A model generated the notes under the pieces. That model saw only the letters and a list, made by a program, of their open reading frames with translations. It searched no databases and had not been told where the DNA came from. Made by a program: the position numbers and the translations under genes. A DNA stretch of 64,000 nucleotides, from the NCBI RefSeq assembly GCF_009914755.1, contig NC_060933.1. One strand, given 5' to 3'. Source of the stretch: the human T2T-CHM13v2.0 reference genome, Homo sapiens. Of the stretch, positions 3,621 through 49,813 are shown piece by piece. How positions within the stretch are numbered: position 1 is the stretch's first letter; every line of letters starts with the position of its first letter.

Positions 3621-5773
<2,153 letters not shown>

Positions 5774-33575: not shown

Positions 33576-34065
<490 letters not shown>

Positions 34066-39440: not shown

Positions 39441-39648
39441 TTTTTTTTTTTTTTGAGACAGCATTTTGCTCTGTTGCCCAGTCTAGAAAGCAGTGGACAG
39501 CTCACTGTAACCTTAAATTCCTGGCCTCAAGTGATACTCCTATCTCGACCTCTTGAATAGCTGGGACTACAGGGATGCAACCACCATGCCTGGCTAATTT
39601 TTATTTATTTTTTTGTTGAGATGGGGTCTCGCTATGTTGCCTAGGCTA
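39441..39648 (-). mobile_element. Partial old Alu (AluJ/FRAM-like)
   Basis: Poly-T, tgagacagcattttgctctgttgccc..., ends in the left arm. Confidence 0.85.
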
Positions 39649-39809
39649 GTAGAAACTTCTTATAAGGATGTGGACACTACTTCTTCAAAACATAACAGAT
39701 TTCCCTAATCAATATATTTCATTGACCATATTATCTTTTGCCTTCACAGCAAACAAAAACTTCTCTTTGTGCCTTCAGTGTTGACTTAAAAAAAAAGTTT
39801 AATGCTTAC

Positions 39810-39997
39810 CTGAATCAAAGTGATCTTTCTCCAGGATATCCAGAGGTTCTGTTGAGTCTATAGACTTACTGATTTCTCCCTTAGGAGAGTCTTTTCCAAG
39901 ATCTCCTTCACCTTCATCAGTGGTCCATAGTTCTCTATTAAATGTATCATGATCAGGTTGTCTTCTGAAATCATCATAGTCTTTCTTCAGGCGGCTC
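39810..39997 (-). CDS. BRD10: KIAA2026/BRD10 penultimate coding exon: (R)SRLKKDYDDFRRQPDHD...EKDHFDS(D)
   Basis: tttcAG|G acceptor, CAG|GTAAGC donor, 188 nt, phase 2/1. Lies within ORF 39799..40071. Confidence 0.92.
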
Positions 39998-40182
39998 CTG
40001 AAATAAAATGCCCAACATAATAAATAATACATATGATTTAAATTCTTGGAATCTAAACTAACTTTTAACATTTTAAACTACATATGGAAATATTTTTTAT
40101 TAAGTCACTAGAAATGCTTTAATCTTAAGTGTGTCTAAGATGCTTAGTTCAGTCTTGCCAATGCTCAGGAAGACAGAACCTA

Positions 40183-40561
<379 letters not shown>

Positions 40562-40906
40562 TCAGAATAAAGATTTGAACATACCATCTGATCATCTTTA
40601 TAAAGGTTGCTGTTAGACCAATTAAATGAGACAACTAATTTTTTTTCTAGCTGCACTGACAGATTAGAGTCTTAAAATTACTGACTATAACACATCTTAA
40701 AAGGTCATTTAAAAAAAGTTTAAGCCAGAAATTCTAAGCACCAGTATCTATTTTTGTGACTATCATACAGAGAGTAACAAATCTATCACTTAATCCTGGG
40801 AGTAATTGTATCTAAACCTTTCAATCTTAATAGAAATATTTTAAAAAATTATGCCTAGGAAAACAAAGCTGAAAAGTAATCTTTCACAGAGATCTTTTTC
40901 ATATAA

Positions 40907-41947
<1,041 letters not shown>

Positions 41948-44195: not shown

Positions 44196-44311
44196 CTGTT
44201 TCTTTGGAAAGCCTTCATTAACTTTGGTTCCCATGGCAGCAATTCATTTAAAAGACGTATCAATGTACTATGTAATTCTTTTACAGCTTGCCTCCGATGA
44301 TACCATTTTCC
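44196..44311 (-). CDS. BRD10: KIAA2026/BRD10 internal coding exon: GKWYHRRQAVKELHSTLIRLLNELLPWEPKLMKAFQRN(R)
   Basis: tttttAG|GGA acceptor, AG|GTAAT donor, 116 nt, phase 0/2, open frame. Confidence 0.9.
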
Positions 44312-45090: not shown

Positions 45091-47524
45091 CTACCTCTTA
45101 AAAAGTACATCACATGAATTCAATCTGACACAGGCTATAGAAACCTCTAGAAGATACACCTCACCTGTATATATAAAATTATTTGAATAACATAGGAACA
45201 ATAAATTTATAGCTGCTAAGCCACAGTATATACCTATTATTACCATCACCTACTGTTACATAATCATGTTGGGTTTTTTTTTTGTAATGGCTTTGAGATA
45301 TAATTCACACATCACACAATCCACATGTTTTCTTTCTAACAAAAGATACATAATTATATACGTTATGGGTCACATTTAACATGCATAAACAGATTTTGTC
45401 CTACAGCAACTGTTGAGTCCATTTGCATATAAGTAGAACACTAAGGTGGAAAAATTACCACTATCTAGAGCAAAAACTATTACAAACATGTGCATAAATT
45501 TCCCAATATATATAAGGAGATTATATATATATATATATATATGACCTTCAAATTTGTCATGAAAATTTTAGTCACATATAAACCTGTGTGACGAACAGTA
45601 CAGTTTTACAAAAAATATTCTGTGCTTTAAACCAGCAGAATGTTTATGCACATTAACAGGTAAATTTCTACCTCTGAGGTTTTTATATCTTAGAAGAGGA
45701 ATTGCTTACTAGAAGAGTAGGAAGATATGAGATTATATATGTGCATGTGCACGTAATGAATATGGAACCGAGGCTCATGACTAATTCTTGTTTCTTAATG
45801 GTATGATGAATCAAAGAATTAAGAAAAAAAATTCAAGAAAAGTAATTTTTATTTCATATATTAATCTAGATAGGCCTCTTTCTTGTTAAATGTGTTCTAA
45901 AGTACACAAAGGACGCAAGTTAAAAATGAGCTACACCTTACAAGTTTATTTTTCTCAAAGAAATGTTATAAAAGTGCTTATTTTAAGCCATGAACACAAA
46001 ACTATTAAATGATACATTATAAAATTGAACAGGAAGTAACTTTCATCTAGAAAAAGTGAACTTAAAATAGAAATTAGGTAGACTTGTAACCAACATTCTT
46101 CCACTTCTCAACTATTTGGCTTCAAAAAGTCAAATGGTCAGAGTGGAAGTAAATCTTTCCTAAGTTAAAGAGAGAAGAAAGAGGAAAGATATGATAGTAG
46201 GGAGACTATACTCTTTGTGGCAGAATTAACTGGAAAACTGTTCAAAGGCTAGGGAACACCAGGCATGCTGAATTCCTCACCGGGAGTTACAGGAGAAAAA
46301 TGGCAGCTGTAGAGTTACTCTGGGCAGTATGACTGCTGCCTGGATTAGCAAGTGGTAGTGTGGTGGGGGATGCAGAAGGACTAGCAGTATTGTGGCACAG
46401 AAGACCTTACTTAGGCCTAGGTAGATGAGGCACAGGATGGGGAGACTGGGTAGCTGGGATGTTGTTATTTCAAGATATTTGTCAACTGTATTTCTGCCTC
46501 TGTTGAATTACAATATTAATTTTTGTAGAAAAGTTTTTAAAAGATTAGAAAGTTTTTACCTTTTATGTTTATTACTAATCTTAGAAATTTAATCCCACAT
46601 GGAGAAATATACTACTGAACTAGAAGACTGTATATAAGGAAGGAAGCTTAAATATTATGATCAGAGAACAGACTTCTTTCATACAACTTACCCACTAATC
46701 TGTTTTGAAATGTCTGTTATCTTTTAACATTATATGTTTTGTGGCCTTCTTCTCTTTCTTTATGTATTTTCAGTCTGGGGTAGTGGTGGTATAGTACTTC
46801 ATTCATAATTTGAAAATGCTTATTAAATCATTCTATATTTCGAAAACAAACCCAAAAGTTTATTATTTTCACAACACAAATTATAGAAAAGACTGATAAA
46901 ATGCTTTGTCTAGCAGATACATATGAATATAATGACCACAACAAAGGGCACCCCTATACCCTGCCATGGAGAATGTGAGTCAAGTTTTTATGTTGCTCAA
47001 AAGCATGCAGAGGTTTAAAAAAGTTGAAAATTAACTGTTCTGGGATTGCTATTTGAGGTAAGGTGCTTTAATTACTTAGAGTAAAAGGGAAACTCACACT
47101 GCCTGTTTTATGTATCATCTGCTTTGGTCAAAACATGGTGCTTATAACCCCAATCAAATTAAAATAATGACACTGTCCCTTTCTACTTAGTAGTGTTCTC
47201 AGAGTTGCATGGTATACAATGAAATTAATGTAAAGAGAAGAAAAGTTATATAAAAGAAATGAGATGATAATCTGCCTTATCTTGGGTCTAATATAAAAAT
47301 CTACATAAAAATCAAGCAAATATTTATTGAACTTTAAATTAGGTCATTAACTAAAAGCTACTAATAGCTTTTCTGATTGATCAACTTTATTCATATACAC
47401 GGACAAGGGAAAAACAAAGAACAATGATCATGTTTCATCTCGGATGAAATTATTAAAGTTGAAAGGAAACTAAAAGGGCATTTATTTTCTAGAAGAAAAT
47501 GGTCTAAAGTTATACAGGGAAGTA

Positions 47525-47846: not shown

Positions 47847-49501
47847 TATTTGCCGACAGAAGCAGCCATTAGACTAGAATTCTACACTCTAAATACTAAC
47901 GTCTAATCTCCTTCCACTATACAATGCTGTATTTCTTGGACCCCACAAAGACAATTCCTAAAGAAGACATAGATTATCTTGTGTAAGTACCTATATTTAC
48001 ATGTAGGTATCTCTGTATTATAAGAATTAAAATCTCTAAGACTTATTTTAACTTTTAAAATTACAATAATAATTAAAATAATAATGACCTAAAGTTAAGA
48101 GTGAATTAAAAGCAAAACAGCAAGTTCTTCTGTCTTCAAACACAAAGACAGAATGTGGATGTAATAAAAATCAGAAAGGTTCTTAAGACTCTTTCTCTAT
48201 ACTGATTAATACACAAACAAAGATAAAAATGGCAGATAGATAATTTAGTAAAAGATCATTTGTGGAGCAGTGCTATGACTTTCTCTAATAAAAATATATT
48301 TAATAAGCTTTATGCATCTAATTTTAGTTCTGACTTTCCTTTATAAACAAGTATGTGAACACAGGGATAAATTAACTGTTTCCATGTTAGAATTTTCACT
48401 ATTTTCATAGGCAAACAATACTGAGAGAATCTCAATGCATTACATGAATTTCATAATTCAAATATTTACTGAAGGTCACTTTATAAAGGGACAAGCAGTA
48501 TTTTTCTTTTATGAATCAACAAAAGTATGAATTTCAAGTGTACATTATGGAACCAAAGACATACAATATAATTTAAATTTGAAGCTTACCTTTCATGCTT
48601 TCTCATCCAATGTCCACGGCAGCTGCAGATTGCCAGCTCCCTTTCCATAAGATGGCCCAACTACCAAACACTGGAGGTTTTATAACCCCATAGGGATTGC
48701 TACAACAAGGAACTGGTCTATGGTCACAAGATTAAGTCCTTCATTATATCATGCAGTTTTATAAGTCTTTGAATGTAACAGATTAATAACTTAAGGAATC
48801 ATAAAGGAAAATAAAAAATAACTTACAAAACTACACAATATTGTAAAAAGAAAAGCTGCATCTCTATGTATGTGAAATGAGTCGGGAGGGAAACTTACCT
48901 CACAACTAAAGAACAACTGCATTCTGCTACAGTAATCTGGGATGGGTATGACAGCACCAGCATAACACTGGCTGGAGTGTGGCAAGGAGAGGGAGTTGGC
49001 AATCTACTGATGCTGGGGACATTGGATACCTAAAAAGGAAAAAAAGAGGGACATAAATAAATTCTATATTAAATGTCTCATAACAACAAATATATTTTGC
49101 ACACTTTAATTTAGATACTTTGTACATTAAACTTAGGTGAAAGTCACTTGTTTATACAAGCCATACAGTTACTTACATAGATTTTTCTTGTAATATTATA
49201 TCTAAACAAAACAGGTATCGGCAGTCATATGAAGAAAAAATTAAAATCATATAAAAATATACAAAGAATGCTTTTTAAAATGGAGATGGTATTATTGTGG
49301 AGATAACATTTTTATTTAAAAGAACAGTACAAAACATATACAACAAAAGTATGAATGCTTTTTTCCTATATGCTTTTATTTACAAATATGTTGTTAGATC
49401 ACAGACACATGAAGCACAGAACATTTTTTGTTACAAGTTTAATTCTTGTCACAGACATAAATTCTGTGGTAGAGAAGGTATTAAATATCAATATATTATG
49501 C

Positions 49502-49813
49502 TTTTCTTTTTTTTTTTTTTTTTGGAGACAGGGTCTTGCTCTGTTGCCCAGGCTGGAGTGCAGAGGTACGATGTCGGCTCATGGCAACCTCCACCTCCTG
49601 GGTTCAAGCAATTCTCCTGCCTCAGTCTCCCTAGTAGCTAGAATTACAGATGCCTGCCACCACGCCCAACTAATTTTAAATTTTTGTTTTTTCAGTAGAG
49701 ATGAGGCTTCACCATATTGACCAGGCTGGTCTTGAACTCCTGACCTCAAGTGATCCACCTGCCTTGGCCTCCTGAAGTAGTGGGATTACAGACACGAGCC
49801 ACTGCGCCCGGCC
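49502..49813 (-). mobile_element. Alu (AluS-like)
   Basis: Antisense dimer. TSD atattatg. Confidence 0.92.

What the first reader, a model, noticed from the sequence alone, without database searches (positions are those of the whole stretch)
48590..49029. Two candidate poison exons in a BRD10 intron that base-pair with each other
Seen on -: exon A (49029-48899, 131 nt) has a very strong acceptor (ccctctttttttcctttttAG|G) and a perfect donor (GAG|GTAAGT). Exon B (48699 or 48660 to 48590) ends in AAG|GTAAGC. Both are GC-richer than the AT-rich intron. The start of A (49027-48986) is complementary to the end of B (48646-48605) at 35/42 Watson-Crick positions plus one G-U. The helix starts 2 nt from A's acceptor and ends 15 nt from B's donor. 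A spliced to the 44311 exon frameshifts to TAA after ~10 codons; A+B and B alone also hit stops, so these routes predict NMD. A is open in frame and has the same phases (0/2) as the 116-nt exon, so A replacing that exon would keep frame. Established: RNA-structure-controlled poison exons are described in BRD2 and BRD3. Inference: an analogous unproductive-splicing switch in BRD10.
Basis: partly seen in the sequence, partly recalled or inferred. Interest (0 to 1): 0.78.

Follow-up and report, generated by a model that had tools for sequence, protein, structure and literature searches.

The report
Hairpin linking two BRD10 poison exons
Two frame-breaking alternative exons inside a BRD10 intron carry a real 42-base inverted repeat that should fold into a strong RNA stem right beside their splice sites, which may help keep them out of the normal message, but that role is untested.

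Summary
On the minus strand, 49027-48986 pairs with 48646-48605 at 35 of 42 Watson-Crick positions plus one G-U. The splice motifs, phases and premature stops are as described. Chance expects about 1e-6 such pairs per window.

The exons are not new. RefSeq already lists 48899-49029 and 48590-48888. An orangutan GenBank protein is exactly the predicted truncated product. A red-deer model also joins the upstream exon to exon A, with 30 of 43 residues identical. Exon A is therefore older than the human-deer split and evolves more slowly than neutral DNA.

The arms occur nowhere else in the genome. A control transposon arm from the same window finds 3029 places.

The stem is strong (-55.3 kcal/mol, pairing probability 0.83). 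It probably hinders use of exon A despite its excellent splice sites. Selection on the pairing is not shown: arm B could not be seen in other species, and the mismatches favour the antisense strand (-63.8 kcal/mol).

Verdict: a real structure, a plausible new example of structure-controlled unproductive splicing, and unproven.

The parts
49030..49050 (-). 3' splice site of exon A: an unbroken pyrimidine tract followed by AG (49031-49030)
   Evidence: 20 of 20 pyrimidines at -22..-3, against 13-15 of 20 for the four exons of the main BRD10 transcript in the window.
48899..49029 (-). Exon A, a 131-nt annotated alternative exon. It is open in phase 0, and including it shifts the frame.
   Evidence: Hub RefSeq table. 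Frames. Orangutan protein P0001. Deer protein P0003 with 30 of 43 residues identical. No paralogue in the genome.
48986..49027 (-). Arm A of the inverted repeat (5' arm of the RNA helix), at exon A positions 3-44
48854..48918 (-). Predicted local hairpin that buries exon A's donor GAG|GUAAGU (48901-48893). The apical loop is 48891-48884.
   Evidence: pair probabilities of 0.96-1.0 for seven of the nine donor bases (48901-48893); 48896 is unpaired and the rest of the stem falls to 0.70.: -22.8 kcal/mol, z = -3.75, 0 of 200 shuffles as stable. Comparable predicted occlusion occurs at some constitutive donors.
48605..48646 (-). Arm B of the inverted repeat (3' arm of the RNA helix)
   Evidence: It is the best partner of arm A among 1489 windows of the gene.
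48590..48699 (-). Candidate exon B, with an alternative acceptor at 48660. RefSeq lists 48590-48888 instead, so only the donor end is annotated.
   Evidence: Acceptor pyrimidine content is only 11-12 of 20. All routes through B meet a stop.
48584..48603 (-). Purine-rich end of B plus the donor AAG|GUAAGC. Predicted to pair with exon A's pyrimidine tract in some sequence contexts only.
   Evidence: 12 of 18 tract positions paired at P>=0.7 in a 631-nt context; mean unpaired probability 0.78 in a 918-nt context.
44281..44283 (-). TAA reached when exon A is spliced to the 116-nt exon

Best explanation
Exon A (49029-48899) is a genuine, old, already annotated alternative exon of BRD10. Including it breaks the reading frame, so it should send the transcript to nonsense-mediated decay.

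It shares a single-locus inverted duplication with the stretch just before the next downstream donor (48590). In the pre-mRNA the two 42-nt arms form a stable imperfect stem. That stem begins 2 nt after exon A's acceptor and ends 15 nt before B's donor.

The most likely effect (inferred, not shown) is repression. Once arm B is transcribed, about 380 nt after arm A, the stem locks up the first third of exon A next to its 3' splice site and most of exon B. A local hairpin also covers exon A's donor. Together these would explain why an exon with better splice signals than its constitutive neighbours is absent from the main transcript.

Because pairing has to wait for arm B, the balance could depend on elongation speed or on factors that open the stem.

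Shown: the repeat, its uniqueness in the genome, the frames, the age of exon A, and the predicted stability. Inferred: that the stem forms in vivo, that it lowers inclusion, and that cells use it.
For: - The repeat is real and far beyond chance.
- Duplex energy is -55.3 kcal/mol. Mean pair probability is 0.83 in both 491-nt and 1001-nt contexts.
- The 491-nt fold has z = -5.55, with 0 of 100 shuffles as stable.
- Each arm's best partner among 1489 windows of the gene is the other arm: -56 kcal/mol, against -35 or weaker elsewhere.
- Exon A has 20 of 20 pyrimidines at its acceptor and a GAG|GTAAGT donor. The main-transcript exons have 13-15 of 20.
- The donor hairpin has z = -3.75.
- Premature stops occur on every route that includes A or B.
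- The orangutan protein model equals the predicted truncated product.
- The deer model retains E5 joined to exon A with 30 of 43 identical residues, no gap and an open frame. Simulated neutral drift reaches that identity with P = 0.003 at 30% nucleotide difference and 0.04 at 25%.
- The three single-base deer changes in arm A would each keep a G-U pair if arm B is unchanged.
- Mechanistic precedent: BRD2 exon 3b and BRD3 exon 5b rise when their pairings are blocked or mutated, and fall back in compensatory mutants (PMC10789245, section 17).
Against: - There are no expression, junction or structure-probing data here.
- Arm B could not be examined in any other species, so there is no covariation test.
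- The mismatch pattern gives no sign of selection on the sense strand. Of 4 transition differences, 1 gives G-U and 3 give A.C in the BRD10 RNA. The antisense duplex would be stronger (-63.8 against -55.3 kcal/mol).
- At 6 of 6 informative mismatch positions the deer residue fits the human arm-A base. This fits a constrained exon A with a freely drifting arm B.
- The deer G-U result (3 of 3) has about a 1 in 4 chance given arm A's A+C content (27 of 42).
- The extension of the stem over the pyrimidine tract depends on context.
- Predicted donor occlusion is not exceptional. Exon A scores 0.12 unpaired, against 0.09-0.62 for seven other donors, including 0.09 and 0.14 at constitutive exons.
- Exon B's acceptors are weak and unannotated.
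Confidence: 0.45

Rival explanations
1. Neutral by-product. An old inverted duplication, or a very low-copy transposon relic, happens to sit on a leaky alternative exon. The stem may or may not form, and it has no selected or regulated role. The A- and B-containing transcripts are low-level splicing noise removed by NMD.
For: - The mismatch pattern does not favour the sense strand: the antisense duplex is 8.5 kcal/mol stronger.
- All informative mismatches are consistent with decay of arm B alone.
- A 17% difference between the arms is about what one neutral arm would accumulate since before the human-deer split (recalled rates).
- No paper in the held library links KIAA2026/BRD10 to NMD or to a regulated splicing event here (listings only).
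Against: - Exon A itself evolves more slowly than neutral DNA.
- Its splice sites are better than those of the constitutive exons, which calls for some silencing mechanism.
- A -55 kcal/mol stem 2 nt from an acceptor is unlikely to have no effect on it.
Confidence: 0.35
2. The stem promotes rather than represses. It brings A's acceptor and B's donor together, so the 440-nt block behaves as one short composite exon with the inner 199-nt intron kept. This gives a hairpin-bearing, stop-containing transcript that could also be an ADAR substrate.
For: - RefSeq lists a continuous exon 48590-48888 that spans the inner intron and B (hub table).
- The acceptor and donor sit 2 and 15 nt from the ends of the stem.
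- The unspliced block stops at the TAA inside A's donor.
- Three A.C mismatches lie in the stem. ADARs favour such positions (recalled).
- PCCRs below -30 kcal/mol are strongly enriched in editing sites (PMC8052449, passage).
Against: - The annotated exon starts at 48888, not at 49029, and no AG precedes it. It may be only a truncated cDNA end.
- Pairing next to a 3' splice site usually hinders its use (established knowledge).
Confidence: 0.1
3. Exon A is a protein-coding alternative to the 116-nt exon (mutually exclusive use). This would give a BRD10 isoform with 43 different residues, and the open frame would be what is conserved.
For: - The length class and phases match, and A in place of the 116-nt exon reads through to the normal stop.
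- The frame is open in human, orangutan and deer. The orangutan indel is one whole codon.
Against: - Both cross-species models show A joined to E5 and, in orangutan, followed by the 116-nt exon and an early stop.
- The 70% identity to deer contrasts with 29 of 30 identical residues in the neighbouring constitutive exon.
- No long protein carrying the exon was found, but proteins above 2000 residues were not searched.
- Skipping the 116-nt exon is not in the annotation table.
Confidence: 0.07

Closest known systems
[quoted passage not shown] 2024, PMC10789245)
   Same: A frame-breaking alternative exon in a bromodomain gene, with a stable long-range pairing beside it. In BRD2 and BRD3, blocking or mutating the pairing raises inclusion and compensatory mutants restore it. 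The same repressive logic is proposed here.
   Different: - There the arms are intronic and flank the exon, looping it out whole. Here the arms lie inside two exons and loop out A's donor and B's acceptor.
- Those pairings are conserved and experimentally tested. This one is neither.
- By recall, BRD10 is not a BET-family paralogue of BRD2/3, so any likeness would be convergent.
Catalogue of conserved long-range pairings in human pre-mRNAs (PCCRs; Kalmykova et al. 2021, PMC8052449)
   Same: The same kind of object: complementary regions within a gene, with energy well below the -15 kcal/mol range discussed there. The catalogue also reports links to splicing and to editing.
   Different: - That catalogue excluded all constitutive and alternative exons and all repeats by design, so a pairing between two annotated alternative exons falls outside it.
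- KIAA2026 and BRD10 have 0 occurrences in its main text and in the 3 supplementary files held.
Splice-site-masking local hairpins such as those at MAPT exon 10 and SMN2 exon 7 (recalled, not looked up here)
   Same: Exon A's donor is predicted to sit in a local stem.
   Different: Prediction only. Similar predicted occlusion is seen at constitutive donors in this window.
Short non-autonomous DNA transposon (MITE) with terminal inverted repeats, like the hairpin at 33746-33875 in this window
   Same: Two inverted arms of about 40 nt round an AT-rich interior.
   Different: - The control arm has 3029 places in the genome, while the finding's arms have only their own 2.
- No flanking target-site duplication is visible.
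- The similarity does not extend inward past the 42 nt (P = 0.36).

Membership tests
Poison (NMD-inducing) cassette exon | Alternative exon with working splice sites that is used in real transcripts | tested here: met
   Exon A 48899-49029 is in RefSeq models (hub table). Orangutan and deer protein models contain it joined to the upstream exon. Consensus splice sites. For B, only the donor is annotated.
Poison (NMD-inducing) cassette exon | Inclusion creates a stop more than about 50 nt upstream of a later exon junction | tested here: met
   the stop lies at nt 252 of the joined exons, with junctions at 337 and 525. All routes through B also stop early.
Poison (NMD-inducing) cassette exon | The isoform rises when NMD is inhibited | not testable with these tools
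   No RNA-seq data are available here.
Poison (NMD-inducing) cassette exon | Sequence conservation above the intronic background | tested here: inconclusive
   30 of 43 residues are identical to deer. P = 0.003-0.04 under simulated drift at 30-25% difference. This rests on one distant species, protein only, and a neutral rate taken from recall.
Long-range RNA pairing that controls splicing (PCCR / RNA bridge) | Stable complementary pair within one pre-mRNA | tested here: met
   -55.3 kcal/mol, pair probability 0.83. z = -5.55. Mutual best partners.
Long-range RNA pairing that controls splicing (PCCR / RNA bridge) | Both arms conserved, with compensatory substitutions | not testable with these tools
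   No other vertebrate DNA is on hand. Indirect signs are mixed: the three single-base deer changes in arm A would keep G-U pairs, but the human mismatches favour the antisense strand.
Long-range RNA pairing that controls splicing (PCCR / RNA bridge) | Arms in the introns flanking the regulated exon (loop-out geometry of BRD2/BRD3) | tested here: not met
   Arm A is at exon A positions 3-44. Arm B lies inside exon B.
Long-range RNA pairing that controls splicing (PCCR / RNA bridge) | Disrupting the pairing changes inclusion and compensatory mutation restores it | not testable with these tools
   This needs a bench experiment.
DNA-transposon / MITE relic | Other copies of the arms in the genome | tested here: not met
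   - A 27-base pattern at up to 3 mismatches finds 2 places, both at this locus.
- A gapped exact pattern finds 2 places, both at this locus.
- A 20-mer at up to 1 mismatch finds 12 places. The 10 foreign ones do not extend beyond the 20-mer.
- The positive control finds 3029 places.
- Old, low-copy families are not excluded.
DNA-transposon / MITE relic | Target-site duplication flanking the arms | tested here: not met
   The bases outside the arms (…TTTTTAGGT and GAGAAAGCA…) share no direct repeat. Decay over about 90 Myr or more could have erased one.
DNA-transposon / MITE relic | Assignment by Dfam or RepeatMasker | not testable with these tools
   No repeat library is available. window.fa carries no soft-masking. 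The hub's list of the longest masked stretches does not include this region.

The most novel reading that the evidence does not exclude
The stem is a selected exon-to-exon RNA bridge, a geometry unlike the intron-to-intron loop-outs described so far. It holds a strongly signalled poison exon silent. By depending on how soon arm B is transcribed or unwound, it tunes BRD10 dosage through unproductive splicing. When the whole 440-nt block is kept, the same stem, with its three A.C mismatches, serves as an ADAR target. Systematic catalogues would have missed it because they mask annotated exons.
Probability: 0.12. Interest if true: 0.65.

Novelty: new member of a known kind. Interest (0 to 1): 0.4.

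Why it matters
BRD10 (KIAA2026) is a poorly studied bromodomain gene in the 9p24 region. It appears in the listings of 9p deletion-syndrome papers (listing only).

If the stem really gates a poison exon, it would give a simple handle for raising or lowering BRD10 output: an antisense oligonucleotide against one arm. It would also add a case in which the pairing partners lie inside alternative exons. The main catalogue of conserved pairings excluded that class by design.

If the stem is neutral, the locus is still a clean example of how a single-copy inverted duplication can sit on an old alternative exon.

Tried and rejected
Searches for other copies of the arms:
- DNA searches of the genome with the 440-nt block and with each arm region found only the query itself and not even the other arm. 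That mode is too insensitive to say anything about diverged copies.
- I used shorter patterns instead.

Other negative results:
- Rfam found nothing in 48605-49029. The only two weak hits (E = 0.45 and 0.99) lie at 49453-49600.
- Extension of the repeat inward is not significant (P = 0.36). Outward extension is marginal (P = 0.0165).
- The exon A peptide has no paralogue in the genome. Of 7 matches, only the self match is below E = 0.6.
- The search for long proteins carrying exon A found none, but it covered only 227-2000 residues and BRD10 is longer.
- P0002, from the representative search, is a repetitive protein with 0 matched stretches. I set it aside as spurious.

A reading I corrected:
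- I first took the orangutan Phe (48989 C>T) as evidence that the human mismatch is derived. The deer Ser shows the human base is the older state, so I dropped that reading.

Literature:
- KIAA2026/BRD10 does not occur in the cryptic poison-exon paper (main text and 1 held supplement) or in the PCCR paper (main text; 3 held supplements).
- The pig splicing atlas names the gene only in correlation lists.
- The 'KIAA2026 + editing' search returned author-contribution boilerplate.
- Paper reading closed when I asked for the supplements of PMC10573301 (RIC-seq) and PMC10691357. Those files might hold a contact or a predicted pairing for this gene, and I did not see them.

Full report
**1. The observation**

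I read 48400-49200 on the minus strand.
- Exon A runs from 49029 to 48899 (131 nt). It follows ccctctttttttcctttttAG and ends GAG|GTAAGT.
- The B donor is AAG|GTAAGC at 48590|48589.
- AG dinucleotides precede 48699 and 48660.

The repeat finder reports arms 48605-48646 and 48986-49027: 42 nt, 83% complementary, 339 nt apart. Base by base there are 35 Watson-Crick pairs, one G-U and six mismatches (C.U, A.C, U.C, A.A, A.C, C.A).

With the window's base composition, P(>=35 of 42) is 1.7e-14. That gives 1e-6 expected per window and 0.05 per genome. The two arms are therefore copies of one sequence and not a coincidence.

A census of the whole window finds 14 inverted pairs of at least 30 nt within 1 kb. 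The other thirteen are:
- seven in the repeat-masked block 39500-41500 (Alu-like by recall);
- a short transposon-like hairpin at 33746-33875;
- four low-complexity or weak (71-72%) pairs;
- a 205-nt, 99% pair at 4953/5569.

**2. Frames**

From the annotated coding parts, the 90-nt exon (60108-60019, "E5") ends in phase 0, and the 116-nt exon has phases 0/2. In-silico joining gives the following:

| Route | Outcome |
|---|---|
| E5+A+116 | Stops at TAA (44283-44281) ten codons after A, 85 nt before the next junction |
| A+B (either acceptor) | Early stop |
| B alone | Early stop |
| Unspliced 440-nt block | Early stop |
| Third annotated exon 46692-46832 | Early stop |
| A in place of the 116-nt exon | Reads to the normal stop |

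GC is 0.49 in A and 0.48-0.51 in B, against 0.24-0.33 around them.

**3. The exons are already known**

The hub's RefSeq table lists 48899-49029 and 48590-48888 as exons of other BRD10 transcripts. Exon A is thus annotated exactly.

B is annotated only at its donor. Its listed 5' end, 48888, is not preceded by AG, so it is a transcript start or a truncated cDNA end and not an acceptor.

**4. Evidence from other species**

No other vertebrate DNA was available, but the protein searches found two informative models.
- P0001 is 'KIAA2026 isoform 5, partial [Pongo abelii]'. It reads E5, then exon A (93% identical), then the frameshifted tail RENGIIGGKL and stop. This is exactly the product predicted for E5+A+116.
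- P0003 is 'hypothetical protein Celaphus_00018312, partial [Cervus elaphus hippelaphus]'. It reads E5 (29 of 30 residues identical) joined to exon A (30 of 43 identical, no gap, frame open).

I simulated random substitutions on human exon A.

| Nucleotide difference | P(>=30 identical residues) |
|---|---|
| 30% | 0.003 |
| 25% | 0.04 |
| 20% | 0.23 |

Taking the neutral human-artiodactyl difference as roughly 25-35% (recalled, not computed), exon A is older than that split and has changed more slowly than neutral DNA. It has still changed far faster than the neighbouring constitutive exon.

**5. Is it a transposon relic?**

- A 27-base pattern built from the positions shared by both arms finds only the two arms in the 3.1-Gb assembly, with up to 3 mismatches allowed.
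- A gapped exact pattern also finds only the two arms.
- A 20-mer with up to 1 mismatch finds 10 foreign places, but none extends beyond the 20-mer. Alignment scores are 15-21, against 28 for arm against arm.
- As a positive control, the same kind of pattern built from the transposon-like hairpin at 33746-33875 finds 3029 places.
- No target-site duplication flanks the arms.
- Similarity does not continue inward (P = 0.36). Outward it is marginal (P = 0.0165).
- The exon A peptide has no paralogue in the genome, and Rfam has nothing in the interval.

The repeat therefore behaves as a single-locus inverted duplication. An ancient, very low-copy family cannot be excluded without Dfam.

**6. The structure**

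- The duplex energy is -55.3 kcal/mol.
- In 491-nt and 1001-nt contexts the 42 positions pair with mean probability 0.83, and 36 of them exceed 0.5.
- The 491-nt fold is -145.4 kcal/mol, z = -5.55, with 0 of 100 shuffles as stable.
- Among 1489 sixty-nt windows of the gene, each arm's best partner is the other arm: -56 kcal/mol, against -35 or weaker elsewhere.

Two further elements appeared, and both need caution.

First, in 491- and 631-nt contexts the stem continues outward. Exon A's pyrimidine tract pairs with the purine-rich end of B, including B's donor positions -5 to +1 (12 of 18 tract positions at P>=0.7). The acceptor AG|G is bulged out. In a 918-nt context the tract is mostly free (mean unpaired 0.78). 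This extension is therefore not robust.

Second, exon A's donor lies in a local hairpin at 48918-48854. Seven of the nine donor bases (48901-48893) pair with probability 0.96-1.0, and 48896 is unpaired. The hairpin's energy is -22.8 kcal/mol, z = -3.75, with 0 of 200 shuffles as stable. The same accessibility measure applied to seven other donors in the window ranges from 0.09 to 0.62, against 0.12 for A. Two constitutive donors score 0.09 and 0.14. Predicted occlusion alone does not set exon A apart.

**7. Is the pairing under selection?**

The evidence is thin and mixed.

For selection:
- The three deer residue changes in arm A that need a single base change (S2F, N3S, T12I) are C>U, A>G and C>U. 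Each would leave a G-U pair with the human arm B.
- Arm A is 27 of 42 A+C, so 3 of 3 has about a 1 in 4 chance.

Against selection:
- Of the four transition differences between the human arms, one gives G-U and three give A.C in the BRD10 RNA.
- The antisense duplex would be stronger (-63.8 kcal/mol).
- At 6 of 6 informative mismatch positions the deer residue fits the human arm-A base. The mismatches thus arose in arm B or are very old. This is what a constrained exon A with a freely drifting arm B would give.
- The orangutan Phe at codon 14 (48989 C>T) would create a pair, but it is a single event.

**8. How it most likely works**

Exon A has the best splice signals of any BRD10 exon in the window: 20 of 20 pyrimidines and GAG|GTAAGT, against 13-15 of 20 for the main-transcript exons. 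Yet it is absent from the selected transcript, so something must hold it down.

A -55 kcal/mol stem that begins two bases inside the exon is the obvious candidate. It ties up 42 of exon A's first 44 bases and 42 of the last 57 bases of B. By established knowledge, 3' splice-site recognition and exonic enhancers need single-stranded RNA.

Arm B is made about 380 nt after arm A. This leaves a short window in which exon A can still be defined, so inclusion could depend on elongation rate or on helicases.

The precedent is BRD2 exon 3b and BRD3 exon 5b. There, blocking or mutating the pairing raises poison-exon inclusion and compensatory mutants reverse it (PMC10789245; abstract, section 17).

The geometry differs, however. 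Those arms are intronic and flank the exon, while here they lie inside two exons. So this locus would work like that system, but it fails the loop-out layout.

A minority alternative is that the stem draws A's acceptor and B's donor together and favours a composite 440-nt exon. That would fit the continuous RefSeq exon 48590-48888 and would yield a hairpin transcript open to ADAR editing.

**9. What is in print**

- A search for BRD10 or KIAA2026 returned 92 papers. The 20 listed hold nothing on this intron (listing).
- 'KIAA2026' with 'nonsense-mediated' gave 2 unrelated papers (listing).
- 'KIAA2026' with 'alternative splicing' gave 9 papers: a pig atlas that names the gene only in correlation lists (passages), three circRNA surveys (RAISE, breast-cancer and prostate-cancer circRNA papers) and five unrelated papers (listing).
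- The cryptic poison-exon paper PMC11632617 does not mention the gene in its main text or in the 1 held supplement.
- The PCCR catalogue PMC8052449 excluded all annotated exons and repeats by design (passage). Its 3 held supplements have no hit.
- The supplements of PMC10573301 (RIC-seq) and PMC10691357 could not be opened, so a reported contact there cannot be ruled out.

**10. Verdict**

The repeat and the poison-exon arithmetic are real, and the exons are already annotated. The pairing appears undescribed in what I could search. Its regulatory role is plausible (about 0.45) but unproven, and simple neutrality is the main rival (about 0.35).

This is a new member of a known kind if it is confirmed. 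Interest is moderate.

Noticed in passing
window 4953-5157 and 5569-5773: A 205-nt inverted repeat, 99% complementary, with 411 nt between the arms. It brackets the annotated U13 snoRNA copy at 5300-5406. It is far younger or better kept than any other inverted pair in the window.
   Followed up: no
window 33746-33785 and 33836-33875: A short hairpin with 40-nt arms (88% complementary) about 300 nt beyond the end of BRD10's last exon. A pattern from its arms finds 3029 places in the genome. It is a common miniature transposon (MADE1-like by recall). I used it as a positive control.
   Followed up: partly
window 48888: The RefSeq exon 48590-48888 starts 10 nt after exon A's donor, with no AG before it. 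The start falls in the apical loop (48891-48884) of the predicted donor hairpin. It could be a truncated cDNA end, a cleavage site or an alignment split. This is unexplained.
   Followed up: partly
window 46692-46832: A third annotated alternative exon (141 nt) in the same intron also carries an in-frame stop. E5 followed by this exon stops nine codons into the 141-nt exon, at codon 39 of the E5-started frame. Its splice sites are weaker than exon A's. The intron thus holds at least three stop-bearing exons.
   Followed up: partly
window 44216-44311: This exon of other transcripts shares the 116-nt exon's acceptor but ends at ATG|aaggct, with no GT. It looks like a transcript end and not an alternative donor.
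   Followed up: no
window 44196-44311: Skipping the constitutive 116-nt exon alone would also shift the frame, with a stop at codon 37 of the E5-started frame. Any mutually exclusive use with exon A would therefore have to be tightly coupled.
   Followed up: no
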